NCBI GenBank assembly: GCA_943354835.1
Contig: CALRDH010000001.1
Coordinates: forward strand, 46,460 to 110,459
DNA from: a candidate division WWE3 bacterium
Lineage (GTDB): Bacteria; Patescibacteriota; WWE3; 2-01-FULL-39-13
Reading direction: 5' to 3'
DNA: 64,000 nucleotides
Shown: one piece after another, positions 36,081-63,348 of the stretch
Layout: each line of letters begins with the position of its first letter
Numbering within the stretch: the stretch's first letter is position 1
Made by a program: the position numbers and the translations under genes
The notes under the pieces: model-generated
Told to the model about the DNA's origin: nothing
Seen by the model: only the letters and a program-made list of their open reading frames with translations
The model's database searches: none

Positions 36081-36116
36081 ACTGAGATGAAAAGATCGCA
36101 AATCAAAAACTACTGT

Positions 36117-36190: not shown

Positions 36191-36212
36191 TTGAGGCACT
36201 ACATCCTACTGA

Positions 36213-42746: not shown

Positions 42747-42755
42747 TAAAAATCT

Positions 42756-43568
42756 TTATTGATATTCGGGTTCTACAACTTCGTATCTGAATCCAGGGTT
42801 TTGGATTCCTCCTGGGACTATCTGCGTAAGCACTGAATTTGGGACATACATAACAAGCGTATCGACCAACATACCCTCTGATGCGGGAATTATTACTATC
42901 GGAACAGCAATTGGAGCTGAATGACTACCGTCAGGACTCGTCATTTGAGGGAAATTCCCTAGCTCTGTTACACGAACACCACTACCACCAAGTCCATTCA
43001 TATGTGTTATATATTTGCTCAAAGGTGTTCTATCAGAAATAAAAGCTTGAGTATGCGATCCAGTATCTTCAATTCTTTGTACCCATAAACCAAAACCTCT
43101 ATCCTGAAAATTTTCGGTAACTCCTGGCACATTTTTAGGTTTGGGATTGATACCTTCTGGTGTGAAAGACATTTTCCATGCAGATCCGTCTGGATTATCT
43201 TGGTGTTTTGCTGGTGGTAATGGTATAAACATAAATAGATCACCAGATGGAAATTGTTCAGATGAAACGAAATCTTCACCGTACGCAACAGAATAAGCAT
43301 GCCTAACAACAGTTGAAACGCTGTCATAAACACCCGCGTAATTTTCGGCAACATACGCATTCGCATCCTTAAACGCTGGTTCAGGGCGATATCCTTGCTT
43401 TTCAGGGTTAGAAACAGACGGAACACAGGCAGCAACTAAAGCTGCTGCCGCGGCAACTCCTGCAGAACCTGCCAAAAATTGTCGTCTAGTCATACCACCC
43501 GAACCATCCGTACTACCCTGCCCAAAAGGTTCTTCTGTTGGATTTATTGTCATTAATTGATTACTCAT
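42756..43568 (-). CDS. Tat-signal lipoprotein, hypothetical
   Basis: Twin-arginine motif TRRQFLAGSAGVAAAAALVAAC with a lipobox-like VAAC. 270 aa. Intermediate GC. Confidence 0.45.
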   Translation of the reverse strand: MSNQLMTINPTEEPFGQGSTDGSGGMTRRQFLAGSAGVAAAAALVAACVPSVSNPEKQGYRPEPAFKDANAYVAENYAGVYDSVSTVVRHAYSVAYGEDFVSSEQFPSGDLFMFIPLPPAKHQDNPDGSAWKMSFTPEGINPKPKNVPGVTENFQDRGFGLWVQRIEDTGSHTQAFISDRTPLSKYITHMNGLGGSGVRVTELGNFPQMTSPDGSHSAPIAVPIVIIPASEGMLVDTLVMYVPNSVLTQIVPGGIQNPGFRYEVVEPEYQ

Positions 43569-43593
43569 AACGAAAAAATGATATCATAAAAAT

Positions 43594-46500
43594 ATGCCTG
43601 TCACATCAATTACTGGGCTTACGCCAGAAAATCAAGCTGAACCTTCGCCAATCGAAATAGCAATTCAAGCAATGGATTCAATAGATTTCGATCAACAATT
43701 GCCATTTGAAGCACGCACTGGATTAACAAGCACTTCACGAAAAGCATATGATCTGCCCCCAGAAAAGGCCGCTGAAATAGTAGCCTATGAAGCAGAACAA
43801 AACAAGGGATATGCCATCGATCAAACCTCACCACCGAGAACTTTTTTCCAAACCCCTACAGAAATTATAGAATACACTGGCACTGATATCGACCAATCTA
43901 GGTTAGCAACGGTAACAGCGATTTATTACGCCACAAGTGCCAGAGAAGGCTTAAATGAAACTGAAGCAACAGCCCAAGCTGGTAAAAAAGAAAACCAAGG
44001 GGCAGGCAGTCATAATTTTGGCCTGAAATTTCTTGCTAATTTAGTAATAACTATTGGTAAGGCTCGATTAAAAATCCTATCGAGATACAACCATCCAAGA
44101 CAAGGACCTGTTGTTTGGGCCGGTGAATACAAGCAAAAAGAAGCTCATAGTGGCATAGGACATCAACTAGCTCTTGATTATCTGAAAGAACAAGATGGAA
44201 AGGGTGATTTACCGCATATAGCATATTCAACATTAATGAAAATAGAAAATCCACCAACAGAATTAGTGCAAGCAGCAGCAAACATGCATAAACGTTACAT
44301 ATTATCTGATCCACATTACCAACATGCCAAATTAGTACAGCCGGCAGAAAACACTTTAGTAAATATAACGGAATTCGATTATAGCCATGCTCACTATGAA
44401 CTACTACCAAGGGGCATACATGCACTCGAAGCCAGTGTAGACAGAAACGGATTATACAAAGCTGCTGCGGTTGACTGGCTAGCTCTTGAAGACCGTGAAA
44501 TTAGATTTCTTTTGCCTTTGGCAATAAGACCATCACCAGAATCAACATACTCGCCGACAAGAAGCCTAGACAGCGGATCCATGTTAAATGGTGAATACAC
44601 AAGATACGCAATCGAAGATCAAATGGAGAAAGGTAATATCCCTTTATTACAACAAATTGTTTTGCGAATGCGCGAGAGTGGATTATATACAGATTTAATC
44701 GTAGGAATAGACGATAAATGGGACAAACGACTAGTTAACTTACCAATCGAATTACGTACTAGAAGTTATAAGACTTCGCCTTGGACAAGGGAAACAAAAA
44801 ACTTTTTTGACGAATTTATAAGTCATGATATGGATGTAATTGCGATGGGTAGCCTATCAGAATACGCCCGTTTATGTGATCTATACAATAGATTAAGCCC
44901 TCAAGTAAGGGTCAAACTTAAAAATTACAAGTTAGCTTTAGTCGGAGATGATTTAAAAGCACAAATGTGCCTTTCTGGCGCAATAACCATCGACACACTC
45001 GAACGCCGCATTGACGACATGGCTGAAATTCAAAGCTGGAAACACGATGAAACCTTTAATCAAGTGCCATTTAATCTTCCATTATTATTACAAGACGTAG
45101 CTAAAGATCCAGGCTTAAAAATAAGCTTTAGTGGATCAACGATAAGTGTTTCACAATCAGGTTATCACCCAATTCGATTAGATCCTCATCGTCAGTTGAT
45201 GCATGGCGATTTGTTCACTTTAGTAGAACAAACTGCTCAAAACGCTCTGTTACGGGACCTCATTAAATTCATATTATGGGCTGAAGCAAAGCGCAATACA
45301 AGAACGATGGCAATCGCAAGAGTATCGATGTCTCAAGGCAAAACCAAACTTGAGTCAAGTTATCGACCGATAAAAGGTACCAATCAAATCCCAATATTAA
45401 GCCATACAGAACAGATCAAAAACAGAAGAAACATTGCGTACCCGCAAATAATGGTAAGAATAGATGGATTAAGCGATGAAACCTTTGAAGAAGTTAGTAG
45501 ATTGTATGAAGATTTCCGTGCGGCCATTTTGAAAGAAAAAGAGATAAAAAAAGAAAATTTAGACAGAAATCTAAAACTCAAAGTTGCGGAACTATGGCGA
45601 AGGAAAAAAGAAAACAGACAAAAATTAACCCGTGACAAAAAGATTCGAATGGAACAAAGTGTGGCGCAAAGCCCTGAAGAAAGAGTGTCTACAGAAACAC
45701 TTAATGTTTGGCAAGCAAGGGCTTCATCAGCAATCCATCATCTAACTTGGATATTATCAACATCTATACTGGCCGGCTCACACGGAAGAAGCCGAGAGGC
45801 GCCAAAACAGCCGAGCAGGCGAGACCTGTTTAGATCAGCCTTTTCAAGTATCGAGTTGAATAACGACAAGGCAAGACCATTGGTGGCTGGGAGGCTTGAT
45901 GATAATGCGGCAAGCAACTCACCAATATCATTTGGAAGTGCTCTGTTACCTGGTCGATCAGAATCACTCGAAAACGCCACGGTTCCCGACCCTATCGAGC
46001 TAAAAGCGTCTCATCCAGGTGTCTTAAAATCCGGCTATTATCTCAATCGTTTATATCATAAAATGCCGGTTGATCCATATCACTTTATAGATCCTCCAGC
46101 CGAAATGACACGTATACAAATAAGAAACGGAAAACCAGAAAGCGAACATCACATTGCAGTTGTATATGATTCAAAAGCAGATGAAGTGACAATACCATTA
46201 AAGCTTGGCGCCACTGTGAATTCTTATACTGGTCCATCCGCGGAGTTCTTTGTTGACACAAACTCACAAACATTAAAAGCAAAAATACTTGGGGATAAAA
46301 GCAAACCCTTAAAGGCTTATATTACTGAAAAAGGAGATTCTAGCGATGTCTATTCACCATGGGCAAATATAGCTAATATGCCAGTAACAGAAGATGATGT
46401 CGCTCCTCTCATTGACATAAGCTTATTATCAAACGAAAATGACCGTCTTGCATTGCAAGCAATAAGAGACTTAGATGCACATACAGATATAAAAATAGCA

Positions 46501-47319
46501 ATGATAACGAAATTTTGGGAGCTCAAGTACGCATACTCTAAATTCACACCACCAGACATGACTTACGAAACATTAGTCACAATGGCCGAAGGCCCATGTG
46601 GGCTATCTGCAATTGGACTCGTTGCCTGCTTACGCGCTGTCGGAATCCCCGCAATTTATGCGAGTGGATTCCTAAACGACAAAGACAACGAACTGACAGA
46701 CAAAGAATTGCATGGTTTTGTATACGTCCATGATGGTTCTATATGGCGCGCGATCGAACCACAAAACGGAAGATTCACTCAAGAAGAAATTCAGACTGCC
46801 GAGATAATAAATCGTGGTGCGCCAACATTTGCGATATCAAATTCAGCAGGACAGCTTACACAAGTAAAACTTGGTGGAAACCCACTAACACTTCGCGATG
46901 CTTCAGGGGTACTTACATCTGCTGAAAACACAGCAAATCCAGCTATCATGGCTACACTTGAAACCGTCCTTAACGTTCCACAAAATGGCGAGACTATGGC
47001 AAATACTAAGGGCAATTCCGTAACTCAGCGTTTACAAACGCCACAAGAAAAGCAATTAGCAAGCAATCAACCTGAAGAGGAGAACCTGAGCGATGCGTCA
47101 CTAACATTACCAACAACCACAGATGGCAACAATGTTATTACAACTATCCTTTCTGAAAATAAAAAAACGGCGACTTATGCGGGTGGAGTACTTCTGGCCG
47201 CAGCTGGAGTAGGCGGAGTACTTAAAGGCATACAAATTGCTACACGGCGTGCATACGCAAGAGGATTTGATGAAGCATATGATGAGGTACTTCATGCAAT
47301 CCAGGATACATTGCTATAA
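43594..47319 (+). CDS. giant hypothetical protein (1241 aa) with a C-terminal transglutaminase-like cysteine peptidase core
   Basis: GPCGLSAIGLVACLRAVGIPAIYASGF...HGFVYVHDGSIWRAIEP fits the Cys/His/Asp transglutaminase-like superfamily signature. No N-terminal signal peptide. A hydrophobic segment lies near the C-terminus (YAGGVLLAAAGVGGVL). Confidence 0.55.
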   Translation: MPVTSITGLTPENQAEPSPIEIAIQAMDSIDFDQQLPFEARTGLTSTSRKAYDLPPEKAAEIVAYEAEQNKGYAIDQTSPPRTFFQTPTEIIEYTGTDIDQSRLATVTAIYYATSAREGLNETEATAQAGKKENQGAGSHNFGLKFLANLVITIGKARLKILSRYNHPRQGPVVWAGEYKQKEAHSGIGHQLALDYLKEQDGKGDLPHIAYSTLMKIENPPTELVQAAANMHKRYILSDPHYQHAKLVQPAENTLVNITEFDYSHAHYELLPRGIHALEASVDRNGLYKAAAVDWLALEDREIRFLLPLAIRPSPESTYSPTRSLDSGSMLNGEYTRYAIEDQMEKGNIPLLQQIVLRMRESGLYTDLIVGIDDKWDKRLVNLPIELRTRSYKTSPWTRETKNFFDEFISHDMDVIAMGSLSEYARLCDLYNRLSPQVRVKLKNYKLALVGDDLKAQMCLSGAITIDTLERRIDDMAEIQSWKHDETFNQVPFNLPLLLQDVAKDPGLKISFSGSTISVSQSGYHPIRLDPHRQLMHGDLFTLVEQTAQNALLRDLIKFILWAEAKRNTRTMAIARVSMSQGKTKLESSYRPIKGTNQIPILSHTEQIKNRRNIAYPQIMVRIDGLSDETFEEVSRLYEDFRAAILKEKEIKKENLDRNLKLKVAELWRRKKENRQKLTRDKKIRMEQSVAQSPEERVSTETLNVWQARASSAIHHLTWILSTSILAGSHGRSREAPKQPSRRDLFRSAFSSIELNNDKARPLVAGRLDDNAASNSPISFGSALLPGRSESLENATVPDPIELKASHPGVLKSGYYLNRLYHKMPVDPYHFIDPPAEMTRIQIRNGKPESEHHIAVVYDSKADEVTIPLKLGATVNSYTGPSAEFFVDTNSQTLKAKILGDKSKPLKAYITEKGDSSDVYSPWANIANMPVTEDDVAPLIDISLLSNENDRLALQAIRDLDAHTDIKIAMITKFWELKYAYSKFTPPDMTYETLVTMAEGPCGLSAIGLVACLRAVGIPAIYASGFLNDKDNELTDKELHGFVYVHDGSIWRAIEPQNGRFTQEEIQTAEIINRGAPTFAISNSAGQLTQVKLGGNPLTLRDASGVLTSAENTANPAIMATLETVLNVPQNGETMANTKGNSVTQRLQTPQEKQLASNQPEEENLSDASLTLPTTTDGNNVITTILSENKKTATYAGGVLLAAAGVGGVLKGIQIATRRAYARGFDEAYDEVLHAIQDTLL

Positions 47320-49185
47320 GAATAACCCATACTTATTAATTCGCTCTTCCACCGCATCTTTGTTTACCGACGGCGCGGCTTTTTGTATTAGTTCGCTGGC
47401 TTTTTGAATGTCACCTTTTTTAATTTGCATATCGGCCATATATACATAATCGTCGCTGAAGTTTCTGGCGTCAAGTTTGATTGTTTTTTCGAAGTTTGCA
47501 TAAGAATCATCGTAGTTTTGACGGGCATAGTATAAAACTCCTAGATAGTGATAGCTTAATGGATCACGCTTATTAAGCGAAACTGCCTTGCTTAAGGATT
47601 CTATAGATCTATCGTCGGCTTTTTTCAAGTAATACATTCCCAAATAGAAATTTGTCTTAAAATCATCAAATCCTGCATACTTTATGTCTATTTTCTCTTT
47701 CATTTTCTCAATATCTCCGCTCCAATATAGAAGAGCAATATATTTGCTAAAAAGGCTTTGCTTAAAAGGATTGTATTTAATAGCTTCTTCTTGAAGTTTT
47801 AAAGATTTTCTAAAATCCCCTTCTAACATAGATGCTTTTTCAAATTTCTCGGAATAACCAATTTGGCTAAACATCAAAGCGCTAAGAAGAAGCGGGAAAA
47901 TCATAAAAAGGACGAAAAGCTTTGATATTAGGGCTTTTTTTATTGTTCCATTTGAAAAAGCTAATAAAGAACCAATAAAAAAAGCCGCGTAAACATAGTT
48001 TATAACGGAATAAAATTCAAACATTCCTTTAACAAAGGTTATTAGAATCGCAAATTTTATATATTTTGATAAATAGAAATCCTTGGAATCGACAATAAAA
48101 AACACATACACAAAAAATGCCGACATAGCTAAAAGCCCAATTAAGCCAGTTTCCACAAGTATATCGACGATTTGGTTGTGAGAACTTTCAACTTCCAAAA
48201 ATAAAACTTCCTTTTTATCATTCATTGGATCCAAGTACATTGGATAAACGTTTTGAAAGTTCGCATTTCCATATCCAAAAATTGGCCTATCTTTAAATGC
48301 TCTAATTCCTACTCCCCACAGGTCAAAACGCTTGTCGTATAACCCGTTTCTGTCTTTGAAGCTTAAGAATCTTTCTACGTTATATGGCAAATCTAGCTTT
48401 TCAGTATCGATTGGAGGAGTTAATACCAAAAGTGCGAATAATAAAAACGGCACAACAATCCAAGAAATCCGAATCTTTTTATTGCGGATAAATGAAAAGG
48501 CTTCTAAATAAGCAAATATTGCGATTCCGATTATAGCGCCTCTTGATCCTGTAATGAAAACTCCAGTAAAAAGTATGGCCAATGAAATCAGGTTCCATTT
48601 TGATTTAAATTTCGATGATTTTAGTAAACCGTAAATTATAGGAATAACACTTGCCAAAATTCCGCCGAGTAAATTTGGTTGTCCAATTGTTGCTGTAGCT
48701 CTTCCGTCGTAGCTTAAATCAATAATTTCAAAATACAATAAAGTGCCATGGATAATGGTTAATGTTCCAAGTAAAACAGCTCCAAAAATCAAAAATTTAA
48801 GTGATTTATTTGTTTTTTCAAGCTTTCCTGAATGAGCAAAATAGAAAACAAGTCCTAGATAACTTATAAGTGCCAATATTGAATCGTTTTGAATGGCGTC
48901 TCCAGCAAAACTTCTGAATGGAATTATAGAACTCGAAAGGTTCAAATAGCTCAATGCAAAAAACGCTAACGCTGCAATTAAAACTGAAATCTTGAGTTCT
49001 GTTTTTTTAAACAGCAAAAAACCGCACAAAATAGCGGAAATCAAAGACACATACATAAGCTTTGGAAGCTCATAAACGCTCAACAGTGATCCCGAAAAAA
49101 GCAATGGAACAAAAACAAAAAGAAAAAACAAAACTAAATTTTCGATTCCAAAAAACAAACTTTTCACACTTTTCACATAATTCAT
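47314..49185 (-). CDS. polytopic membrane protein, O-antigen ligase/Wzy_C-like with C-terminal TPR repeats
   Basis: About 12 transmembrane helices with a large loop, then TPR-like repeats (YHYLGVLYYARQNYDDSYANFEKTIKLD). Confidence 0.55.
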   Translation of the reverse strand: MNYVKSVKSLFFGIENLVLFFLFVFVPLLFSGSLLSVYELPKLMYVSLISAILCGFLLFKKTELKISVLIAALAFFALSYLNLSSSIIPFRSFAGDAIQNDSILALISYLGLVFYFAHSGKLEKTNKSLKFLIFGAVLLGTLTIIHGTLLYFEIIDLSYDGRATATIGQPNLLGGILASVIPIIYGLLKSSKFKSKWNLISLAILFTGVFITGSRGAIIGIAIFAYLEAFSFIRNKKIRISWIVVPFLLFALLVLTPPIDTEKLDLPYNVERFLSFKDRNGLYDKRFDLWGVGIRAFKDRPIFGYGNANFQNVYPMYLDPMNDKKEVLFLEVESSHNQIVDILVETGLIGLLAMSAFFVYVFFIVDSKDFYLSKYIKFAILITFVKGMFEFYSVINYVYAAFFIGSLLAFSNGTIKKALISKLFVLFMIFPLLLSALMFSQIGYSEKFEKASMLEGDFRKSLKLQEEAIKYNPFKQSLFSKYIALLYWSGDIEKMKEKIDIKYAGFDDFKTNFYLGMYYLKKADDRSIESLSKAVSLNKRDPLSYHYLGVLYYARQNYDDSYANFEKTIKLDARNFSDDYVYMADMQIKKGDIQKASELIQKAAPSVNKDAVEERINKYGLFL

Positions 49186-49212
49186 ATTACAGATAACTTA
49201 CCAAAATGGATA

Positions 49213-50730
49213 TTAATTACTTATTGGAAAACTTAAAATATCAGAAAGAACATCCGAAATAGTCTCGGAAATTGGAGTTGAGACGATGTCTGAAATAATC
49301 TCCGAGATTGGATTACTTATAACATCGCTGGTTGGAGTCGATGTTATGCCAGAAATTGGATTGCTGATGACATTAGAAATTCCGTCCGAAATTATTTCTG
49401 AGATTGGGTTACTCACGATGTTGCTAATTCCATCGCTAATTGGAGTTGATGTAATTTGTGATATTGGATTGCTGATAACATTTGAAATTCCATCCGAGAT
49501 AATCTCCGAAATCGGGTTACTAACGATGTTGCTGATTCCATCACTAATTGGATTTGAGGTTATTTGTGATATTGGACTTGAAACGATGTCCGAGAGAATC
49601 TCCGAAATTGGGTTACTAATTACATTCGAAATCCCATCCGAGATGATTTCCGAAATCGGGTTGCTTACGATATTGCTTATTCCATCGCTGATTGGATTTG
49701 AAGTTATATCAGATATTGGACTCGAGATGATGTCCGAGATTATCTCTGAAATTGGATTACTTACGATATTTGAGATTCCATCAGAGATGATTTCTGAAAT
49801 TGGATTACTTAGGATGTTACTAATTCTATCACTGATTGGGCTTGATGTTATGCCGGATATTGGGCTTGAGACGATGTCAGAAATTATTTCTGAGATTGGG
49901 TTACTTACAATATTACTGATTCCATCGCTGATTGGACTTGAGACAATGTCTGAAATTATCTCCGATAATGGATGACTTACGATATTACTAATTCCATTAC
50001 TTAACGGAGTACTTAAAATTACAGATGTCGGATTTGATAGTGGATCTGAAATTATTGGAGAAATAATATCTCCCTGTACTTCAACAAAAAACAAATGTTT
50101 TGATGTTTTTGAAGACTGATTTGCCTTGTCTATTGCTTGAACTTGCACTTCATAAATTCCAAGTGCTGGCCTTACTAAAATAAAAGTGTGAACAGGCTTT
50201 TCAATCACTTCAGAAACCATCGACCCATTAATAAAAAGTCTTGTGTACTTCAAATCATTATCAATTACACGAACAGAAATATTTACATTTTGCCCAAATT
50301 TATACCTTGCCGCAATAAATGACGTATCAGTAAACAAAATAATTGGAGGTGTATTTATTCCGGAAGAATCATCGTTATCGTCGTCGTCATCATCGTCGTC
50401 GGAATCTTCATCGTTATTATCATCATTATTATTGCTTGTATTTTGAATAGTTGAACTTTTTGCGTTTCTTCTACCTGAAGAAAGTACTAGATTCTCAACC
50501 TTTTTAATAACCTCATCAATTTTGCTATCGGACAAAACACTTCCTAAATTTGACTCTACATCATTCGTGACATAATCATCACCATTAATTTTATTAATAA
50601 AATATCCAATTGAAAGTCCAAGAGAAACCCCTGCAATAGAGGTCAAAAGCCAATAAATCCACTTACTCTGTAATTTTAATAACAAGCTTATAATTTTATT
50701 CACGAAAATGTTTATGGACAGAACATTCAA
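49213..50730 (-). CDS. membrane-anchored repeat protein: poly-acidic stretch, Ig-like segment, and a long C-terminal (x-x-I-S)n tetrapeptide-periodic array
   Basis: N-terminal transmembrane helix, NDDNNDEDSDDDDDDDDNDD, then about 280 aa of NPIS/EIIS/DGIS/NIVS units with a 12-nt period. Confidence 0.5.
   Translation of the reverse strand: MNVLSINIFVNKIISLLLKLQSKWIYWLLTSIAGVSLGLSIGYFINKINGDDYVTNDVESNLGSVLSDSKIDEVIKKVENLVLSSGRRNAKSSTIQNTSNNNDDNNDEDSDDDDDDDDNDDSSGINTPPIILFTDTSFIAARYKFGQNVNISVRVIDNDLKYTRLFINGSMVSEVIEKPVHTFILVRPALGIYEVQVQAIDKANQSSKTSKHLFFVEVQGDIISPIISDPLSNPTSVILSTPLSNGISNIVSHPLSEIISDIVSSPISDGISNIVSNPISEIISDIVSSPISGITSSPISDRISNILSNPISEIISDGISNIVSNPISEIISDIISSPISDITSNPISDGISNIVSNPISEIISDGISNVISNPISEILSDIVSSPISQITSNPISDGISNIVSNPISEIISDGISNVISNPISQITSTPISDGISNIVSNPISEIISDGISNVISNPISGITSTPTSDVISNPISEIISDIVSTPISETISDVLSDILSFPISN
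49216..50050. repeat. 12-nt-periodic degenerate tandem repeat array within the coding sequence
   Basis: Units such as ATTGGATTACTTACGATATT / ATCTCCGAAATTGG recur throughout. This produces a long antisense ORF artefact (49286-49975). Confidence 0.6.
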
Positions 50731-50740
50731 AACCTAAAGT

Positions 50741-52507
50741 TTGCGGGATTATACGCTGAAAATGCACAAATCGCAACACGTTATGACTTTCCCACCATGC
50801 TATTCTTTTTTAATGCAGGATTACGTATGGCAGTTTTTAAATGACTCAGAAATTAAAAATAAAGAAGACATCATTAAAGTTGTTCTAAAAAACAGGCAAA
50901 TTGAAGATGTTTCAGAGTTTCTTAATCCTAAAACACCATTTGAATTCATAAAAAACGATAAAGAAATGGTGGCACTTATAAAAGAGCACGTAATTCCAGC
51001 AAAAAAACTAATACTTGAAGCAATTAAAAAAGGACAGGAAATAATAATTCATGGCGATTATGACGTAGATGGACAAACAGCAACAGCAATTCTGTGGAAA
51101 ACGATTTATGAAGATCTTGGATACAAAAACGTAAAACCATTTATACCAAACAGATTCGATGACGGATACGGACTAAGCATAAAAAGCCTGGCGAATATAG
51201 GAGCTACACTTTCAAAAAGGGCAGGCCAAGCTTTAGCTAGGCCTGCCCTCTTAATAACGGTCGACTGTGGCATAGTTTCTATTGATGAAGTTCTGGAAGC
51301 AAAAAAGCTTGGATTTACGGTAATAATCACAGATCATCACGAATCACACAAAAATCTTCCAAAAGCAGATGAAATCATTCACACAACAAATGCAACTGGA
51401 GCTGGAATCGCGTGGGTACTTGCAAACGAACTTTCGCCAGAAACATCAATAAAAAAGCTAGGGCTCGCCGCACTTGGAACAATCTGCGATCTTCAACCTC
51501 TAATTGGATTTAATCGATCAATTGTTAAACATGGACTTTTAGAATTAAACCTAAACATGCCAATAGGAATAAACGCCCTTTCGCAAATTGCAGGAATAAA
51601 AGAAAAAATCGGCGAATACGAAGCAGGATGGCAAATCGGGCCAAGACTTAATGCTACTGGCAGAATGGAAGACGCAATGGATTCCTTAAGACTTTTATCA
51701 ACAAATTCAATGGAACAAGCTATTATACTTGCCAAAAAACTAAATTCGATTAATACACAAAGACAAGACAAAACAATTTCAGACACATTTTCGGCAATAC
51801 AAGAAATTGAAAAAGAAAATTCTGACGGAGTAATAAAGAATTTTATAGTTACATCAAGCACAAACTATCACGAAGGAATAATAGGACTTGTAGCAGGAAA
51901 ACTAACACAAAAATATCACAGGCCTGGAATTGCGATTGCTATAAACGAAAAGGAAGATATTGCAAAAGGTTCTGCAAGATCAATATCTGGGATATCAATT
52001 GTCGATGTGTTAAGAAAATTTAATGAACTTTTTGAAGGACTCGGCGGCCATGAAATGGCCGCCGGCTTTTCCATAAAACCTTCAAATATCCCTTTATTAA
52101 AAGAAAAACTCTACTCACTCAACGACTGGCCGTCTGAAATTTTTAACAAAACTCTAAAAATCGACGCGATTTTAGATACAAATTTAATATCACTTGATTC
52201 CTTAAACGAAATAAACAACCTAAAACCATTTGGCGCCGGGAATTTCGAGCCAGTCTTTTGCATAAAAAACATTACAGTTACTAACTTTTCAAGGTTCGGT
52301 AAAGAAAACGACCACCTAAAACTATTTCTTGAAGATAAGAATCACAATCAATTCACTGGCCTCGCTTTTGGAAAAGGAAACCTATCAAACTCACTTAAAA
52401 ATGGCCAAACTACAGACATCGTCTTTAATCTCTCTCAAAACACATGGAACGAAAAAACCACAATAGAAATAAAAATTAAGGATTTGAAAAAGAGCATTGA
52501 CGGTTAA
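50741..52507 (+). CDS. recJ: single-stranded-DNA-specific exonuclease RecJ (DHH/DHHA1)
   Basis: DHH motifs IIIHGDYDVDGQTA and ITDHH, plus a DHHA1 region with GGH (GLGGHEMAAG). The start is probably the internal MQDYVWQ. Confidence 0.8.
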   Translation: MRDYTLKMHKSQHVMTFPPCYSFLMQDYVWQFLNDSEIKNKEDIIKVVLKNRQIEDVSEFLNPKTPFEFIKNDKEMVALIKEHVIPAKKLILEAIKKGQEIIIHGDYDVDGQTATAILWKTIYEDLGYKNVKPFIPNRFDDGYGLSIKSLANIGATLSKRAGQALARPALLITVDCGIVSIDEVLEAKKLGFTVIITDHHESHKNLPKADEIIHTTNATGAGIAWVLANELSPETSIKKLGLAALGTICDLQPLIGFNRSIVKHGLLELNLNMPIGINALSQIAGIKEKIGEYEAGWQIGPRLNATGRMEDAMDSLRLLSTNSMEQAIILAKKLNSINTQRQDKTISDTFSAIQEIEKENSDGVIKNFIVTSSTNYHEGIIGLVAGKLTQKYHRPGIAIAINEKEDIAKGSARSISGISIVDVLRKFNELFEGLGGHEMAAGFSIKPSNIPLLKEKLYSLNDWPSEIFNKTLKIDAILDTNLISLDSLNEINNLKPFGAGNFEPVFCIKNITVTNFSRFGKENDHLKLFLEDKNHNQFTGLAFGKGNLSNSLKNGQTTDIVFNLSQNTWNEKTTIEIKIKDLKKSIDG

Positions 52508-52531
52508 TAACATACATCATAATGTATAGAC

Positions 52532-52789
52532 ATGAAGCGCACACAAATTTACCTAAAAGATACACAATATAGAAAACTAAAGGAATACTCCGATGCTAAA
52601 TCTGTAAGCCTTTCTGAAAGTGTTCGAGAGATGGTTGATGTTGGCTATGAAGTTACAACAAAAACTAAACAAATAAAAGTAAAAAAATTCGGTGTCGGAG
52701 ATCTCCTTTTAAATAGCAGAAATAGTATTGCCTTTAATGGCCCAAAAGATTTATCCCAAAATATTGATAAATTCGTATATGAAATCTGA
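52532..52789 (+). CDS. ribbon-helix-helix antitoxin (CopG/VapB-like)
   Basis: 85 aa. RTQIYLKDTQYRKLKEYSDAKSVSLSESVREMV fits an RHH N-terminus. Followed by a PIN gene. Confidence 0.45.
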   Translation: MKRTQIYLKDTQYRKLKEYSDAKSVSLSESVREMVDVGYEVTTKTKQIKVKKFGVGDLLLNSRNSIAFNGPKDLSQNIDKFVYEI

Positions 52790-53198
52790 TAATGAAATTT
52801 TCATAGATGCTAGCTTTTTTTGCGCATTTTATAACGAAAATGACGCATTATTTAAAAAAGCCTCATCATACATTGAACTTTTAAACACAAAAAAAATATT
52901 CACATCGAACTTTATCCTGCTTGAAAGTTACACTGTTATCTCACAACGTGTGTCAAAAAAAGCAGCAATTGAATTTGGCAAGACAATTCAAAACATGCCA
53001 GAAATTAAAATAATAAAAGTTGACCAAGATCTAGAAAAATCATCCTGGGGCATTTTTGAAATAATATCCGACAAAAACATGTCCTATGTTGATTGCTCAA
53101 CAATTGCATTAATGCAAGAATACTCAATTAAGCAACTTCTTACTTTCGATTCACACTTCAAAAAACATACAAAACAATTTGGATACAAAATTGTATAA
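52779..53198 (+). CDS. vapC: PIN-domain toxin (VapC-like)
   Basis: EIFIDASFFCAFYNEND N-terminal PIN motif. Start chosen at MKSDNE to limit the overlap; the ORF track starts at 52728. Confidence 0.6.
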   Translation: MKSDNEIFIDASFFCAFYNENDALFKKASSYIELLNTKKIFTSNFILLESYTVISQRVSKKAAIEFGKTIQNMPEIKIIKVDQDLEKSSWGIFEIISDKNMSYVDCSTIALMQEYSIKQLLTFDSHFKKHTKQFGYKIV

Positions 53199-53206
53199 TA
53201 TCTAGA

Positions 53207-54754
53207 ATGTCTTCTTTATATTCCAAAATTAAAATTGCTCTTGATTCAAAAAAAATAATATATAAGGAATTAAGACACGAAGCTGTTTTCACAAGCGAGG
53301 AAGCCGCAAAAATTCGAGGCACGAGTCCCGAAGAAGGCGCAAAGGCACTAATTTTTCAGGCAAAAAGATCTGGCCAAAACGAAAAGATTTTTATACAACT
53401 CGTAATTCAAGGAAATAAGCGCGTAGACAAAGAAAAATTTAAAGCACGCTTTGGATTCGAAACTTTAAAAATGGTTTCCGGTGACGAAGTTGAAAAAATA
53501 TCTGGAGTAAAACCAGGCGCTGTTGCACCATTTGGAAATTTATTTGAACCCGCAATTCAAGTTTTTGTCGAAGCAGGAATTATAAGAACTTCGGAAATAG
53601 AATTTAACGCAGGAGATCACAAAATAAGCATAAGAATGAATACTGGCGATTGGGTTAAAATTGTAAAACCAACCCTTGGAAAATTCGCTGAAAAAGAGGT
53701 TCAAGAAAAACGAAAAAATACAGAAGAAGTGAAATTGCTTCCTGCTCCAGAAGTTCATACAGAAGAAACTCATGCGAAAAAGCAGACAGAGCAACCCGAA
53801 TCAAAACATAAGTTCAAAAGAAACAAAATTGTAGCTCATAAATACGTCTATTCATTTTTGGTAGGAACTCTAATGGTTGCCTCTTTTACAGCAGGGAATT
53901 TATTAAAACCAGAAAAACAGGTTCCAGTGCAAATCGTATCCAATCAAGATTTACCTGAAGTTTTAGGTATAGCAGATGCATCGACCAATGTTGATTCTGA
54001 AACGCCAAAAATCGAAGTAGCTCCACCAGAGGTTTCTGCAAAAGCATACGGAATCTTTGACATGAAAAAAGACACGTCAATTTATACAAAAAATCCTGAT
54101 CTTCCACTTCCTCCAGCGTCTGTTACAAAAGTTATGACTGCAATTGTTGCAATGGATCAAGACGATCTCGAAAAACCGGTTCAAATCCCAGAGAATTGTA
54201 CAAAAATTAATGCAAGTAAAGTTGGATTTGTGGCAAACGAAGTTTTGACACTTGAAGATGTTTTATATGGACTTTTAGTCAGATCAGGAGCCGATGCCGC
54301 ATGTGCTTTGGCAAATTTATACAACGAAACGGATTTCATAGATAAAATGAACCAAAAAGCAAATGAGATTGGAATGGAAAAAACGATTTTTGAAAATCCA
54401 ATAGGCCTTGATTCAGACAAGTTTCAGTTTTCAACTGTTAATGATTTAGAAAAGCTAACGAAATACAGTCTTAAATACGGCGTTTTTAGAAAAATCGTCG
54501 GCACTAAAGAAATAACTTTGAGATCTCTAACCAATCCAAATAGAACTTACAAAATAAAAAATACGAATGATCTTCTTTTCACAATTCCTGGAACTGTTGG
54601 CGTAAAAACAGGTTTTACAACAGGCGCAAGAGAATGCTTAATCTACTTATATGAAGATAATGACAACCAATTTCTAATCGTTGTTTTAGGTTCTGAAGAC
54701 AGATTCGGCGATACTACAAAACTTATCAATTGGACAAAGGAAAACCTTCAATAA
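53207..54754 (+). CDS. fusion of a YbaK/ProX-like aminoacyl-tRNA deacylase domain, a transmembrane helix, and a D-alanyl-D-alanine carboxypeptidase (peptidase S11, PBP5-like)
   Basis: The N-terminal ~170 aa match the YbaK pattern (SEEAAKIRG...GAKALIF...KPGAVAPFGN). Transmembrane helix VYSFLVGTLMVASFTAG. The C-terminal half has SVTK (SxxK), SGAD (SxN-like) and KTGFTTGA (KTG). Confidence 0.55.
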   Translation: MSSLYSKIKIALDSKKIIYKELRHEAVFTSEEAAKIRGTSPEEGAKALIFQAKRSGQNEKIFIQLVIQGNKRVDKEKFKARFGFETLKMVSGDEVEKISGVKPGAVAPFGNLFEPAIQVFVEAGIIRTSEIEFNAGDHKISIRMNTGDWVKIVKPTLGKFAEKEVQEKRKNTEEVKLLPAPEVHTEETHAKKQTEQPESKHKFKRNKIVAHKYVYSFLVGTLMVASFTAGNLLKPEKQVPVQIVSNQDLPEVLGIADASTNVDSETPKIEVAPPEVSAKAYGIFDMKKDTSIYTKNPDLPLPPASVTKVMTAIVAMDQDDLEKPVQIPENCTKINASKVGFVANEVLTLEDVLYGLLVRSGADAACALANLYNETDFIDKMNQKANEIGMEKTIFENPIGLDSDKFQFSTVNDLEKLTKYSLKYGVFRKIVGTKEITLRSLTNPNRTYKIKNTNDLLFTIPGTVGVKTGFTTGARECLIYLYEDNDNQFLIVVLGSEDRFGDTTKLINWTKENLQ

Positions 54755-55142
54755 ATCTTTTAATAATTTGACAGGCAGCTATTGAGTCATCTACTTTTCT
54801 ACGCTTCATAGAAACACCAGAAGCCACTGCAATCTCTGACGACTCGTTTGTCGTTCCGAACTCATCGACATAAACTAACTTTATATTTTCTGGCAGCTTG
54901 CTCTTTAAGAAGTCTCCGAAAGCTTTGACTTTTTCTGATGATTTAGTTGGAACGCCGTTAATATATGGAAGACCTATTACTACAATTTCAATTCTTTCGT
55001 CGTTTATTATTTTTAGTATCGAATTTTGTATATCGGATTGAAAAATCCCAAAAGGAGAAACGATATCATTTACGCCAAGAGCTACACCAACATTCTTTTC
55101 ACCATAATCGATTCCGAGTATCCGCATATTACTTTTTATCAA
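54726..55142 (-). CDS. ruvX: putative pre-16S rRNA nuclease / Holliday-junction-resolvase-like YqgF
   Basis: MRILGIDYGEKNVGVALG N-terminus and RNase H-like fold size (138 aa). Confidence 0.8.
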   Translation of the reverse strand: MIKSNMRILGIDYGEKNVGVALGVNDIVSPFGIFQSDIQNSILKIINDERIEIVVIGLPYINGVPTKSSEKVKAFGDFLKSKLPENIKLVYVDEFGTTNESSEIAVASGVSMKRRKVDDSIAACQIIKRFIEGFPLSN

Positions 55143-56622
55143 TTACTATTTCGATGTTTTTGGAAAGATGAGGCATAGTTTGTATAATCGCAGGCATTTT
55201 TGGACTTAGTGTAATCTCAAATCCCTTAATACTCGAAATAGAATTTAAATAACTTTGTGCTTGATCTAATTTCATACCAGTCATGTCTGATATTATTTTC
55301 TTTTCATCAAGGTTTGGCGTTATATAACTTCGAAGTTTGATTTGAAGGTCAACAATGCCTGTTCCTGCTTTTGCTTTTGTGGCAGCAACTTCATATTCAG
55401 GCTTGCCTCCATCTAAACTATATTCTGAAGGCACAACTGTTTTAACAAGTTCGGATACAATTTCATCAAGATTTTTTTGATCATAAACAATTCCGACACC
55501 CTTTGTTGTCATTTCCAAAGTTAACTCATCTCCTTCTTCGGCAAGTTTTTTATCAAAAGTTCCTGATACAGTTGTAAATTCAATTGAAGATTCAGGTAAC
55601 GTTTGACCTGTTACAACTTTCTTTTTTATCGCTTCTATGACTTTCGTTTTCATAAATTCATCAAGAGTTCTTTTTAGCCCATCTAAATCGGCTTGTGCGA
55701 CAACATTTGCTTCTTTCAGTGTTCCACCTTCAAGATTTTCTTTATTTTCACCAACCAATTTTTCTGTGTTGTAATTATCAACTTCAAATTTTTCTTCTTT
55801 ATCTTGATTATATTTATCACCATACGAAACGGCAGTAATACTTACCTCTTTACTACCGTATTCTGTAGTAGAACCGCCAGTTCCTGTTGGTGTCTTTATT
55901 TGTGCAGGAATATCAATGTTTTCTTGAATTTCATACTTTAAACTTTCGTTATCTGTTGAAATAAGTTTTATAACCTTACCCTTTTTAAGCGTTATAACTT
56001 CGTCTGTCTTGTTAAAAAGCGTAACTTTTCCTTTGGCACTATCTCCAATTTCCTTTTTTCCAGTTGTCGGAATAGTCTGGGAATCAGAAACCGTAACATC
56101 AACATTAATTGCTGGAATAGTTGAATCAGCTACAGAAACAGAAGTCGCAGTTGGACTTGCCTTGATATCTAGAATTTTAACTAATATTTGAGAATCAATA
56201 GAAACAGTAACCTTTGCAGACGGCAAATACCACCACAATGCAAATCCACCACCAAAAAATATTAATAAAAAGGCAGCAACATATATCAAAACTTTTGCAC
56301 CTTTAATATTAAGTTTAAATTCTCTTCTTTCTTTTTTAGGTTTTTGATCCATATTTAAATCTACCGATTCGTCTGGTGTTTGCATAAAATCTCCGTTTAC
56401 GGCATCAATATAGTCTTTGTGTGATTTATTTTCAACATCGAAAGTAACTGTTTTATTTTTTTCGTTAGCTAATTTTTGGAGAATTTTTAAATTTAAAGAT
56501 TTTAAATATAACGTTGATTTCTTCTTGAAAAGGATTTTGACATCAGATTCTACTGCATCGTCAATTGCAATAATCAAATCATTAATTTCTGTAGTTTCAT
56601 CGGCCGTAATATTATAATTCAT
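55129..56622 (-). CDS. membrane-anchored hypothetical protein, possibly cell-division-associated
   Basis: Cytoplasmic N-terminus, a single transmembrane helix (VLIYVAAFLLIFFGGGFALWWYL) and a ~350-aa external domain. Directly downstream of the ftsA-like gene. Confidence 0.35.
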   Translation of the reverse strand: MNYNITADETTEINDLIIAIDDAVESDVKILFKKKSTLYLKSLNLKILQKLANEKNKTVTFDVENKSHKDYIDAVNGDFMQTPDESVDLNMDQKPKKERREFKLNIKGAKVLIYVAAFLLIFFGGGFALWWYLPSAKVTVSIDSQILVKILDIKASPTATSVSVADSTIPAINVDVTVSDSQTIPTTGKKEIGDSAKGKVTLFNKTDEVITLKKGKVIKLISTDNESLKYEIQENIDIPAQIKTPTGTGGSTTEYGSKEVSITAVSYGDKYNQDKEEKFEVDNYNTEKLVGENKENLEGGTLKEANVVAQADLDGLKRTLDEFMKTKVIEAIKKKVVTGQTLPESSIEFTTVSGTFDKKLAEEGDELTLEMTTKGVGIVYDQKNLDEIVSELVKTVVPSEYSLDGGKPEYEVAATKAKAGTGIVDLQIKLRSYITPNLDEKKIISDMTGMKLDQAQSYLNSISSIKGFEITLSPKMPAIIQTMPHLSKNIEIVIDKK

Positions 56623-57781
56623 CTGCTTGATCTAGCTCTAATTTAATAACTCCTAAAGTCCCCGTAACAAACATGCGAGATTTATCTAAAACATTAAGTT
56701 CATCTAGTATATTTTTATCTAGCGACTTTCCATCTGTAGATAAAATTTCGACATCATTTGCAAATGGGATTGCTTTTCTCCATTCATCTTCAAGCATAAC
56801 TTCCTGAATTAATGGAAGCATTGATCCTCCACCGCTTAAATAAATCTTATGAGGAAAGCTTTTAATTCCAGACATAGACTCAAGTGAAGTCGCAAATGCT
56901 GTTCTCCAAACTTTTGAAGCATCATACAGGCAGTCGCCGAATTTATCCATCGATTCCTCATCTAGCGTGCCAAAAGCAAATGCCTCTTTTTTTGAATTTG
57001 CAGCGGCAAAATCAAATCCATGTTTATCGACTAAATGTCTTGAGAAATAACTTCCGCCAATTTCAAATGATCTCGATTGAATAATGTTTTTACCTAATAT
57101 ACATGCGACATCAGTATAGTCTTTTCCAATATCAACAAGTAAGAAATTTTTAGCATCTTCCGAAAGAAGCTTTGATTGTGAATAAATCGTAGTTGTAACT
57201 GTTATAGATGAGAATTTTAGATCGTTAATCAAACTTAAAATCCATCTGTAATATTTTTTGCTTGAGTAAGAACAAAATGCGCTAATTTTTACAAACTCGC
57301 CAGTTACTCCCACAGGTTCGGAAACGACAGCGTCATCAACTTGTATTAAAGTAACAACCAAATCTAAAGGTTCAAACCCATCATCATCTGCTGACCAAAA
57401 GGACCACTTCTTTTTTGCTTGTTCATAGCACGAATCGCGAACTTGATCATAAATCGTTGAAATTTCTTTTTCGGTAATTTGCTTTTCTGCATTTTTTCTT
57501 TTAATTTTGGCAATTAGAGTAAATCCAAAAACTTCAGGACCACTTAAACCAATAATGGCATCGGTTGCTTTTAAATTTGATTGAGACAAACATTCTTTAA
57601 CGGAACTTCGAACGACTTCTTTTCGTAATAAATCTTTGTAGCTATCAGAAATTGAAAAGCCTTTTAAAGAGAGCTTTTTAGAATCTAGATCTTCCTCAAA
57701 CGATAACGTCTTTAAAGAAGTCGGAGAAAAATCCAAAACTAAATATCCATTCGTGTGAGATTTTGATTTTGGCAGTTTCAC
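56612..57781 (-). CDS. actin-fold ATPase, FtsA/PilM-like
   Basis: LLVDIGKDYTDVACI and KIYLSGGGSMLPLI correspond to the FtsA phosphate-2 and adenosine motifs. Confidence 0.5.
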   Translation of the reverse strand: MKLPKSKSHTNGYLVLDFSPTSLKTLSFEEDLDSKKLSLKGFSISDSYKDLLRKEVVRSSVKECLSQSNLKATDAIIGLSGPEVFGFTLIAKIKRKNAEKQITEKEISTIYDQVRDSCYEQAKKKWSFWSADDDGFEPLDLVVTLIQVDDAVVSEPVGVTGEFVKISAFCSYSSKKYYRWILSLINDLKFSSITVTTTIYSQSKLLSEDAKNFLLVDIGKDYTDVACILGKNIIQSRSFEIGGSYFSRHLVDKHGFDFAAANSKKEAFAFGTLDEESMDKFGDCLYDASKVWRTAFATSLESMSGIKSFPHKIYLSGGGSMLPLIQEVMLEDEWRKAIPFANDVEILSTDGKSLDKNILDELNVLDKSRMFVTGTLGVIKLELDQADEL

Positions 57782-57790
57782 AATCGAATT

Positions 57791-63344: not shown

Positions 63345-63348
63345 AAGC

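What the first reader, a model, noticed from the sequence alone, without database searches (positions are those of the whole stretch)
49213..50730. Surface-type protein with a tetrapeptide-periodic (x-x-I-S)n array and a poly-Asp/Asn tract
About 280 residues follow a strict 4-aa, 12-nt periodicity (NPIS EIIS DGIS NIVS ...) with Ile-Ser at fixed positions, which is compatible with a beta-solenoid or fibre. They are preceded by a transmembrane anchor, the NDDNNDEDSDDDDDDDDNDD tract (a possible cation-binding site) and an Ig-like segment. The repeat DNA is highly similar between units and could vary by slippage or recombination, that is, phase or antigenic variation.
Basis: seen in the sequence. 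Interest (0 to 1): 0.5.

Follow-up and report, generated by a model that had tools for sequence, protein, structure and literature searches.

The report
Serine-every-fourth-residue surface protein with glycosyltransferase partner
This is a real, strongly selected gene for a membrane-anchored surface protein of an ultrasmall (CPR/Saccharibacteria-type) bacterium whose tail has a serine at exactly every fourth residue for 72 units; in every relative found it sits directly in front of an O-antigen-ligase-like enzyme that probably attaches sugars to those serines.

Summary
ORF 49213..50730 (-) encodes an N-terminal membrane anchor, an Asp/Asn-rich linker, one Ig-like (diverged Big_7) domain and 72 uninterrupted tetrapeptides S-x-x-(I/V/L) that run to the stop codon.

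It belongs to a small, unannotated family. Nine related loci from CPR metagenomes have the same architecture, with 30 to 105 units. Ser occupies position 1 in 558 of 558 units and Thr never does.

In 10 of 10 loci the gene lies 15-73 nt upstream, on the same strand, of a Wzy_C + TPR protein that keeps the WaaL/PglL-type Arg/Arg/His residues.

The DNA units are not alike: 47% pairwise identity, and pN/pS about 0.1 with saturated synonymous sites. Slippage-driven phase variation is therefore not supported. Unit number does differ between lineages, including one clean 13-unit indel between 96%-identical genes.

AlphaFold folds the Ig domain confidently but not the array (pLDDT 25-35), so a beta-solenoid is unsupported.

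Best reading, inferred and not shown: the array is the dedicated poly-serine acceptor of the co-transcribed O-oligosaccharyltransferase-like enzyme, giving a glycosylated surface stalk or brush. A self-assembling periodic fibre remains a live rival.

The parts
49213..50730 (-). Gene for the tetrapeptide-array surface protein. The ORF as listed starts at a TTG. The probable start is the GTG at 50703, which gives 496 aa.
   Evidence: Start inferred from relative P0017 (MNKIISLLL...) and from conservation in L004.
50748..50776 (-). Promoter-like site (TTGCGA-17-TATAAT, 10 of 12 matches) upstream of the gene, in the divergent intergenic region shared with recJ.
   Evidence: This is a consensus match only; the number of sites in the region is not above the shuffle expectation.
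50593..50661 (-). Single N-terminal transmembrane signal-anchor (aa 24-46, WIYWLLTSIAGVSLGLSIGYFI). Lys residues precede it and acidic residues follow, which implies N-in/C-out.
   Evidence: Hydropathy scan. The same layout is seen in all homologues. Topology is inferred from the positive-inside rule.
50368..50433 (-). Asp/Asn-rich low-complexity linker (aa 100-121).
   Evidence: It is shorter in the close relative P0017, D/N/G-rich in L004, L005, L007 and L008, and Lys-rich in L001-L003.
50074..50349 (-). Ig-like beta-sandwich domain (aa ~128-219), a diverged Big_7 type.
   Evidence: AlphaFold pLDDT 82-92. Foldseek hits 9kvu and 3pdg, TM 0.85-0.87. The family profile hits hundreds of multi-copy Big_7 proteins. 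The L007 copy hits PF17957 at E 6e-5.
49216..50073 (-). (S-x-x-I/V/L) x 72 array (aa 220-505), running to the C-terminus.
   Evidence: Ser is encoded by both TCN (44) and AGY (26) codons. pN/pS between the 48-aa higher-order copies is 0.07-0.12.
47314..49185 (-). Wzy_C (O-antigen ligase family) + C-terminal TPR membrane protein, 623 aa, starting 27 nt after the array gene's stop codon. Proposed O-oligosaccharyltransferase partner.
   Evidence: Pfam Wzy_C E 8e-22 plus TPR. WaaL 7TPG aligns with GSRGA, RFDLW and SHN conserved. It lies next to an array gene in 10 of 10 loci.
49286..49975 (+). Antisense 229-aa ORF inside the array. It is a mirror artefact of the repeat and not a gene.
   Evidence: Equivalent antisense ORFs appear in L002, L003, L004 and L007. 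Only the minus-strand frame continues into the conserved TM/Ig region and shows pN/pS of about 0.1.

Best explanation
The gene encodes a lineage-specific (CPR/Saccharibacteria-type) surface protein held in the cytoplasmic membrane by an uncleaved N-terminal anchor. Outside the cell it carries a flexible charged linker, one Big_7-like Ig domain and a long C-terminal array of S-x-x-(I/V/L) units.

The array gene is co-transcribed with a Wzy_C-TPR enzyme of the WaaL/PglL superfamily. The proposed mechanism is that this enzyme works as a dedicated O-oligosaccharyltransferase. It would transfer lipid-linked glycans on the outer face of the membrane to the invariant serines, possibly using its TPR domain to hold the periodic chain. 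The product would be a densely glycosylated stalk or brush. Its length is set by the unit number, which changes in multiples of four residues between lineages.

Shown: the architecture, the periodicity, purifying selection on it, the conserved gene pair, and retention of the catalytic residues.

Inferred: surface topology, glycosylation of the serines, the role of the TPR domain, and the biological role (envelope coat or contact with the host bacterium).
For: 1. Gene pairing. In the window and all nine related loci (L001-L009; L010 is the window's own locus), the array gene lies immediately upstream of, and on the same strand as, a Wzy_C-TPR gene. The gaps are 15-73 nt. The two proteins have diverged in parallel to 35% identity.

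2. Serine invariance. Ser is 558 of 558 at position 1 across nine proteins, encoded by both codon families. Thr is never at position 1 but occurs 96 times at the other positions. Wzy_C-type PglL enzymes glycosylate Ser about 500 times better than Thr (PMC8423747).

3. Enzyme features. The enzyme keeps the Arg (GSRGA), Arg (RFDLW) and His (SHN) that align with WaaL 7TPG. At 615-645 aa it is close to PglL's reported 550-600 aa (PMC9829042). Wzy_C with a C-terminal TPR is the architecture reported for the O-OTases WsfB and PglL (PMC2943079).

4. Gene-order precedent. Dedicated O-OTases of the TfpO and TfpM types are encoded immediately downstream of their acceptor gene (PMC9829042).

5. No lipid A acceptor or capsule locus is seen nearby. 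The enzyme gene is not embedded in a Wzx/Wzz polysaccharide cluster.

6. Topology. Hydropathy averaged over eight homologues, together with K/R-rich loops, favours 13 TM segments with the TPR domain outside, as in PglS (PMC12800693).

7. Flexibility. AlphaFold gives the array no stable monomer fold. That fits the flexible regions O-OTases act on.

8. In L005, a GT4 glycosyltransferase gene follows the pair.
Against: - No glycan or modification has been observed; the case rests on context and analogy.
- The array does not look like known O-OTase sequons, which are Ala/Pro/Ser-rich. It is also unusually hydrophobic for an exposed glycosylation scaffold: GRAVY +0.4 to +0.8, 33-38% I/V/L, on the ordered side of the charge-hydropathy plot.
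- The register is kept for up to 105 units with no indel. That is more than a string of independent sequons needs, and it points to a structural period.
- The side of the membrane on which the TPR domain sits is not settled.
- No initiating phosphoglycosyltransferase or flippase was identified in the parts of the 64-kb window that were annotated. The only glycosyltransferase seen is a GT1-family gene 14 kb away.
- Wzy_C proteins also include polymerases and ligases for non-protein acceptors.
Confidence: 0.45

Rival explanations
1. The array is a structural periodic element. It would be a self-associating fibre, cross-beta stack or multi-chain superhelix in which the invariant small Ser and the I/V/L at every fourth position are packing positions, following the logic of Gly in collagen. 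The Wzy_C-TPR protein would serve a different envelope task, such as polymerising or ligating a wall polysaccharide, and would be linked to the array only through shared envelope biogenesis.
For: - The register is unbroken for 30-105 units over deep divergence.
- The composition is hydrophobic, rich in beta-branched residues, almost free of K/R, and on the ordered side of the charge-hydropathy plot.
- pN/pS is about 0.1.
- A monomer AlphaFold run cannot see oligomeric fibres, so the low pLDDT does not exclude this reading.
Against: - There is no confident fold in either AlphaFold run.
- Pro and Gly occur at irregular unit spacing, so there is no fixed coil length.
- Total exclusion of Thr, Ala, Gly and Cys at position 1 is stricter than most packing positions require.
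- It does not explain why the Wzy_C-TPR gene is the invariant partner in 10 of 10 loci.
Confidence: 0.25
2. The array is an unmodified, disordered low-complexity spacer that simply holds the protein away from the membrane. Its periodicity would be a relic of how it expanded.
For: - AlphaFold pLDDT is 25-35 over the whole array.
- Unit number varies freely between lineages.
- Unrelated period-4 low-complexity arrays exist in other proteins.
Against: - Synonymous sites between internal copies are saturated (pS 0.64-0.76), while Ser stays 100% conserved and position 4 stays 93% I/V/L. The pattern is therefore maintained by selection and is not a recent expansion.
- The array is distal to the Ig domain, not between the anchor and the domain.
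- The composition is not that of a typical disordered region.
Confidence: 0.1
3. The locus is a contingency locus. Slipped-strand mispairing or frequent recombination in the repeat would switch or rapidly diversify the surface protein (phase or antigenic variation).
For: - A 13-unit indel separates L001 and L003, which are 96% identical. It is flanked by the direct repeat AIS(D/N)VVSTPLSD.
- The range is 30-105 units across the family.
- The acidic tract also differs in length between close relatives.
Against: - The units are 12 nt, so length changes stay in frame and cannot switch expression off.
- The 12-nt units are 47% identical, and the longest exact repeat is 26 nt.
- Five independent 99%-identical copies from different samples all have 30 units.
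Confidence: 0.05

Closest known systems
Dedicated acceptor/O-oligosaccharyltransferase gene pairs (PilA-TfpO/PilO, pilin-TfpM, ComP-PglS) and the Wzy_C O-OTases PglL, WsaB and WsfB
   Same: - The enzyme is a Wzy_C-family multi-pass membrane protein with conserved Arg/Arg/His.
- The enzyme gene lies immediately downstream of the putative acceptor gene.
- Ser is the hydroxyl residue on offer.
- A C-terminal TPR is reported for PglL and WsfB.
- The enzyme is only slightly longer than PglL.
   Different: - The acceptor is not a type IV pilin or an S-layer protein.
- It offers 30-105 phased serines rather than one or a few sites.
- The flanking residues (I/V/L at -1, D/N/E at +1) do not match any described sequon.
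- The organism is a monoderm-type CPR bacterium.
- No glycosylation has been demonstrated.
Staphylococcal Ser-Asp (SD) repeat proteins (ClfA, SdrC/D/E, Pls) with the SdgA/SdgB glycosyltransferases
   Same: - A long, strictly periodic Ser-containing array sits in a surface protein.
- The Ser residues are the glycosylation sites of dedicated enzymes (PMC8561734).
- The array acts as an extended stalk whose length varies between strains.
- From memory, SD repeats also encode Ser with both codon families.
   Different: - The period is 2 (S-D), not 4.
- There is no hydrophobic position.
- The enzymes are cytoplasmic GT-B enzymes that use nucleotide sugars.
- The proteins are anchored through a C-terminal LPXTG motif, and the repeat lies next to the anchor. 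Here the anchor is N-terminal and the array is distal.
Serine-rich repeat glycoproteins (Fap1, GspB, SraP) of Gram-positive bacteria
   Same: These are surface proteins dominated by Ser-periodic repeats that are heavily O-glycosylated by genetically linked enzymes (PMC7948813, listed).
   Different: - SRR units are dipeptide-based (S-A/V/T/E).
- They are glycosylated in the cytoplasm by GtfA/B.
- They are exported by an accessory SecA2/Y2 system.
- They end in LPXTG. None of these features was seen here.
Periodic fibrous or solenoid repeats (collagen G-X-Y, pentapeptide-repeat beta-helix, insect antifreeze beta-solenoids)
   Same: One invariant small residue recurs at a fixed short period, with no register breaks over hundreds of residues.
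   Different: - No known fold has a 4-residue period of this type.
- There is no constant coil length.
- There is no confident prediction.

Membership tests
O-oligosaccharyltransferase (PglL/TfpO/PglS type) plus cognate acceptor | The enzyme carries the Wzy_C (PF04932) domain. | tested here: met
   Pfam E 8.4e-22, aa 201-353. The precomputed PF04932 domain is present in all homologues.
O-oligosaccharyltransferase (PglL/TfpO/PglS type) plus cognate acceptor | Conserved Arg residues (Und-PP binding) and the catalytic His of the WaaL/PglL active site. | tested here: met
   phmmer alignment to WaaL 7TPG: GSRGA/GTRGA, RFDLW/RLKIW, SHN/AHN. R215, R286 and H336 are invariant between the window and L001. 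The roles of these residues are taken from PMC12800693 and from memory of the WaaL literature.
O-oligosaccharyltransferase (PglL/TfpO/PglS type) plus cognate acceptor | The acceptor gene is adjacent to the enzyme gene (dedicated OTases). | tested here: met
   10 of 10 loci have the array gene immediately upstream on the same strand. Precedent in PMC9829042.
O-oligosaccharyltransferase (PglL/TfpO/PglS type) plus cognate acceptor | The extracytoplasmic C-terminal domain is on the same side of the membrane as the acceptor. | tested here: inconclusive
   Averaged hydropathy and positive-inside loops favour 13 TM segments with the TPR outside. A 12-TM, WaaL-like topology with a cytoplasmic TPR is not excluded.
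O-oligosaccharyltransferase (PglL/TfpO/PglS type) plus cognate acceptor | Glycan is transferred en bloc from a lipid carrier to Ser of the acceptor. | not testable with these tools
   Needs glycoproteomics or heterologous co-expression.
O-oligosaccharyltransferase (PglL/TfpO/PglS type) plus cognate acceptor | The acceptor is a type IV pilin or carries a described sequon. | tested here: not met
   There is no pilin N-terminus. The units are Phi-S-(D/N/E)-x, unlike the Ala/Pro-rich sequons.
Serine-rich repeat glycoproteins (SRRP) | Dipeptide S-X repeats, a C-terminal LPXTG anchor, and a linked accessory Sec system with GtfA/B. | tested here: not met
   The period is 4. The protein ends in the array with no LPXTG. 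No SecA2/Y2, Asp or GtfA/B genes were found among the neighbours scanned.
Beta-solenoid repeat proteins | A constant coil length with turn residues at fixed spacing, and a confident solenoid model. | tested here: not met
   Pro-containing units are spaced irregularly. AlphaFold pLDDT is 25-35 for the array, while the Ig domain in the same run reaches 82-92.
Big_7 bacterial Ig domain (PF17957) | Sequence match to the family model and an Ig-like beta-sandwich fold. | tested here: inconclusive
   The window copy itself is below Pfam detection. The L007 copy scores E 6e-5 at 24.0 bits against a 24.1-bit cut-off. The family profile retrieves hundreds of Big_7 proteins at E below 1e-18. The fold is confirmed.
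Simple-sequence contingency (phase-variable) locus | Near-identical tandem DNA units whose gain or loss shifts the reading frame or the promoter spacing. | tested here: not met
   The 12-nt units are in frame and 47% identical. The longest exact repeat is 26 nt. Unit number is constant in five 99%-identical copies.
Polysaccharide co-polymerase (Wzz) partner of a Wzy polymerase | Two flanking TM helices and a Wzz (PF02706) periplasmic coiled-coil domain. | tested here: not met
   There is one TM only and no Wzz domain in Pfam or NCBIfam.

The most novel reading that the evidence does not exclude
(S-x-x-I/V/L)n is a new kind of periodic extracellular polymer. The invariant serine at every fourth residue would be both a packing position of a previously unknown fibrous assembly and the attachment point for glycans added processively by a TPR-guided Wzy_C transferase. 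This would give ultrasmall episymbiotic bacteria a protein-cored 'proteoglycan' rod, of tunable length, for contact with their host cell.
Probability: 0.2. Interest if true: 0.8.

Novelty: new variant of a known kind. Interest (0 to 1): 0.55.

Why it matters
CPR/Saccharibacteria live attached to other bacteria. Apart from type IV pili, little is known about what their surfaces carry.

This locus defines an unannotated two-gene module: a phased poly-serine surface protein and a WaaL/PglL-like enzyme. Public records call the protein "hypothetical". Short-read assemblies break inside the array, so the family is under-counted.

If the enzyme glycosylates the array, three things would follow.
- It would be the first O-oligosaccharyltransferase system described in this radiation.
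- It would be a natural acceptor carrying up to about 100 sites per chain.
- It would be a possible scaffold for glyco-engineering.

If instead the array self-assembles, it would be a new 4-residue-period fibrous motif. Either outcome can be tested directly with the sequences given here.

Tried and rejected
- Pfam and NCBIfam on the array protein gave only sub-threshold noise: Grp7_allergen, MlaA, RcGTA tape measure.
- Single-sequence AlphaFold was uninformative. Mean pLDDT was 40.8, and even the Ig domain scored below 40.
- The first word-indexed homology search returned one hit. Low-complexity words probably filled the 8000-candidate limit.
- The exhaustive profile search found the Ig domain everywhere. 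For the array it found only unrelated period-4 low-complexity proteins, such as (SQPV)n, (MSDR)n and (AEEI/AEPV)n. I treated these as convergent, not homologous.
- Rfam found nothing in the window.
- Alpha-helical reading rejected (reasoning, not a computation). Pro occurs in up to one third of units, and a period of 4.0 would wind the hydrophobic stripe by about +10 degrees per residue, which is too steep for a coiled coil.
- Bacteroidetes O-glycosylation motif D-(S/T)-(A/I/L/V/M/T) rejected (motif from memory). Here the hydrophobic residue precedes Ser and the acidic residue follows it.
- Wzz-like co-polymerase role rejected. The protein has one TM and no Wzz domain.
- The antisense ORF 49286..49975 was rejected as a gene.
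- Literature searches for Saccharibacteria or CPR together with "O-antigen ligase" found no paper.
- The genome-collection and metagenome scans each found only a few loci, because the peptide patterns used were narrow.
Full report
**1. What is in the sequence**

The ORF at 49213..50730 on the minus strand encodes 505 aa from the listed TTG. A close relative's gene call (P0017, MNKIISLLL...) and conservation in L004 place the likely start at the GTG at 50703, which gives 496 aa.

The domain order is as follows.
- A short Lys-containing N-terminus.
- One hydrophobic segment, aa 24-46.
- About 50 residues predicted helical.
- The tract NNNDDNNDEDSDDDDDDDDNDD, aa 100-121.
- A beta-rich segment, aa ~128-219.
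- From aa 220 to the last residue, 72 tetrapeptides with no insertion or deletion.

In the array, position 1 is Ser in 71 of 72 units. Position 2 is mostly N/D/E. Position 3 is I/P/G/V. Position 4 is I/V/L/T. In 20,000 shuffles of the array residues, the best in-register Ser count was 35 against the observed 71. No other such array exists in any frame of the window.

**2. The DNA is not a simple repeat**

Tandem Repeats Finder sees only higher-order periods of 72, 108 and 144 nt at 80-83% matches. The 12-nt units are on average 47% identical, 67 of 71 are distinct, and the longest exact repeat is 26 nt.

Between the three non-overlapping 144-nt copies, the synonymous difference is 0.64-0.76 (saturated). 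The non-synonymous difference is 0.045-0.086, so pN/pS is 0.07-0.12.

Ser at position 1 uses both TCN (44) and AGY (26) codons.

The periodicity is therefore old and held by selection on the protein. It is not produced by recent slippage. The 229-aa antisense ORF (49286..49975) is a mirror artefact of the repeat.

**3. It is a family**

The word-indexed search of 5.8 billion proteins returned one relative, P0001 (36% identity, same architecture). Searches anchored on the neighbouring gene then recovered the rest.

| Locus | Source | Array length |
|---|---|---|
| L001 | Logan | 51 units |
| L002 | MAG titled uncultured Candidatus Saccharibacteria | 30 units |
| L003 | MAG titled uncultured Candidatus Saccharibacteria | 64 units |
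| L004 | JGI metagenome | 45 units |
| L005 | JGI metagenome | about 50 units, plus one 1-residue register shift near the end |
| L006 | JGI metagenome | like L002 |
| L007 | JGI metagenome | 96 units |
| L008 | ENA | 105 units |
| L009 | ENA | at least 51 units; partial, with a non-repeat acidic tail |

Over nine proteins and 558 units:
- Position 1 is Ser in 100% of units.
- Thr never occurs at position 1 but occurs 96 times at positions 2-4.
- Position 4 is I/V/L in 93% of units.
- Positions 2 and 3 are variable, with entropy of about 3.1-3.3 bits.

An exhaustive HMMER profile search of 1.84 billion representatives found only P0001, P0004 (the L002 type) and two fragments (P0017, P0047) with this architecture. 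NCBI calls its copies "hypothetical protein", in a bin labelled candidate division WWE3.

The window's own enzyme gene is present in ENA on a contig that ends inside the array (L010). Short-read assemblies break at the array, so databases under-represent the family.

**4. Domains**

With a five-sequence alignment, AlphaFold predicts aa ~128-219 as a beta-sandwich at pLDDT 82-92. Foldseek matches Fn3/Ig-like modules 9kvu and 3pdg (TM 0.85-0.87, rmsd 1.8-1.9 Å).

The family profile hits hundreds of proteins with many tandem copies of this domain. Two that I checked are Big_7 (PF17957) at E of about 1e-54. The L007 copy hits Big_7 directly at E 6e-5. The Ig-like call is right, and the domain is a diverged Big_7.

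In the same AlphaFold run the array scores pLDDT 25-35. In single-sequence mode it was drawn as low-confidence helices. Pro-containing units occur at irregular spacing, so no constant coil length exists. A beta-solenoid is not supported.

The array is nevertheless not a typical disordered region. GRAVY is +0.4 to +0.8, I/V/L make up 33-38%, there is almost no K/R, and every array falls on the ordered side of the charge-hydropathy boundary.

The acidic tract is a linker, not a conserved site.
- It is 7 residues shorter in the 89%-identical fragment P0017.
- It is D/N/G-rich but different in L004, L005, L007 and L008.
- It is replaced by a Lys-rich tract in the L001-L003 clade.

**5. The conserved partner**

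Twenty-seven nucleotides after the stop codon, on the same strand, begins a 623-aa protein with a Wzy_C domain (E 8e-22) and C-terminal TPRs. No terminator-like site lies between the two genes. The best promoter-like site in the region lies upstream of the array gene.

The same arrangement is found in 10 of 10 loci, with gaps of 15-73 nt. The enzyme has diverged in parallel with the array protein, to 35% identity.

The enzyme aligns with the O-antigen ligase WaaL (7TPG). The GSRGA Arg, the RFDLW Arg and the SHN His are conserved. These correspond to the Und-PP-binding arginines and the catalytic histidine discussed for WaaL and PglS (PMC12800693).

Hydropathy averaged over eight homologues shows four hydrophobic segments after the large loop, with K/R-rich loops at 366-376 and 412-418. 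That favours 13 TM segments with the TPR domain outside, as in PglS. A 12-TM topology is not excluded.

**6. Interpretation**

CPR bacteria of this type are thought to have no lipid A (general knowledge), and the enzyme gene is not inside a Wzx/Wzz polysaccharide cluster. A classical WaaL or Wzy role is therefore unlikely.

Four published points fit the locus.
- Protein O-oligosaccharyltransferases are Wzy_C proteins.
- WsfB and PglL are reported to have a C-terminal TPR (PMC2943079).
- Dedicated O-OTases (TfpO, TfpM) are encoded right after their acceptor gene (PMC9829042).
- PglL enzymes prefer Ser over Thr by about 500-fold (PMC8423747).

The most economical reading is an acceptor-enzyme pair in which every fourth residue is a glycosylation site. 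This is an inference. No modification has been observed. The hydrophobic composition and the absolute register also fit a structural periodic assembly. The two readings are not exclusive.

**7. Variation**

L001 and L003 are 96.0% identical in this gene and 98.05% identical in the neighbouring gene. They differ by one clean 156-nt (13-unit) indel flanked by the direct repeat AIS(D/N)VVSTPLSD. Across the family, unit number ranges from 30 to 105.

Five independently assembled 99%-identical copies of the L002 type all have 30 units. Length therefore changes by occasional in-frame recombination between diverged repeats, on the time scale of strain divergence. It does not behave as a rapid switch.

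**8. Novelty and score**

The kind is known: a periodic Ser-repeat surface protein with a dedicated transferase, and an acceptor/O-OTase gene pair. The following features are not described in the literature I could search.
- The 4-residue S-x-x-Phi unit.
- The 100% Ser register over up to 105 units.
- The Wzy_C-TPR partner.
- The N-terminal anchor with a distal array.
- The CPR host.

I file it as a new variant of a known kind, with interest 0.55. There is a 0.2 chance that it is a new fibrous or glyco-polymer architecture.

Noticed in passing
window 36213..37310 (-), GC-rich island about 36200-37200: A 365-aa secreted-type ORF sits in a stretch of 55-62% GC, against a background of about 33%. 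It has two copies of a ~70-aa Cys-containing module, each followed by a Thr/Ser/Pro linker that includes five tandem TNTSTSTPVPTSTA units. It has no Pfam hit. The composition suggests acquisition from a high-GC organism, and Actinobacteria are the usual hosts of Saccharibacteria.
   Followed up: partly
L010 (ENA ERZ27280224, k141_1589899), positions 1-140: The public contig that carries the window's own Wzy_C-TPR gene ends inside the array. P0017 and P0047 are likewise fragments cut at or near the array. Short-read assemblies break here, so protein databases under-count this family.
   Followed up: yes
L001 3722-5285; L002 6917-8331; L003 7919-9482; L006 2691-4126: In one clade the pair is followed by a DUF11/CLIPPER-type protein with an LPKTG sorting motif and a sortase gene, then rho. 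That makes a compact cell-surface gene block. The window has a DUF11 protein elsewhere, at 24016..24726.
   Followed up: partly
window 43594..47319 (+): A 1241-aa protein with a transglutaminase-core domain and a C-terminal hydrophobic segment converges on the Wzy_C-TPR gene and overlaps its end by 6 nt. It has no NCBIfam match. It is present in L010 but not next to the pair in other loci.
   Followed up: partly
P0148 (855 aa, from the representative library): An unrelated AT-rich protein carries an N-terminal (V/I-S-E-P)n tetrapeptide array fused to a GT90 glycosyltransferase domain (E 2e-26). This is a second, independent association of a period-4 Ser array with a glycosyltransferase.
   Followed up: partly
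L005 5863-7104 (+): A GT4-family glycosyltransferase gene lies directly after the Wzy_C-TPR gene in this locus only.
   Followed up: partly
window 38079..41933 (-): Two AAA_14/DUF4143 ATPase genes and an AbiEii-type nucleotidyltransferase toxin gene sit next to the GC-rich island, which may mark a mobile or defence patch.
   Followed up: no
window 1..64000: No Rfam family reached its gathering score anywhere in the 64 kb, including tRNA, rRNA and riboswitches.
   Followed up: no
window 50741..52507 (+), recJ: The listed RecJ ORF starts at a TTG only 10 nt from the listed start of the array ORF. Both listed starts are probably too far upstream, which would leave a roughly 100-nt divergent promoter region.
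   Followed up: partly
L007 150-2087: All 96 position-1 serines of this homologue use TCN codons and none uses AGY. Every other family member mixes both codon families.
   Followed up: no
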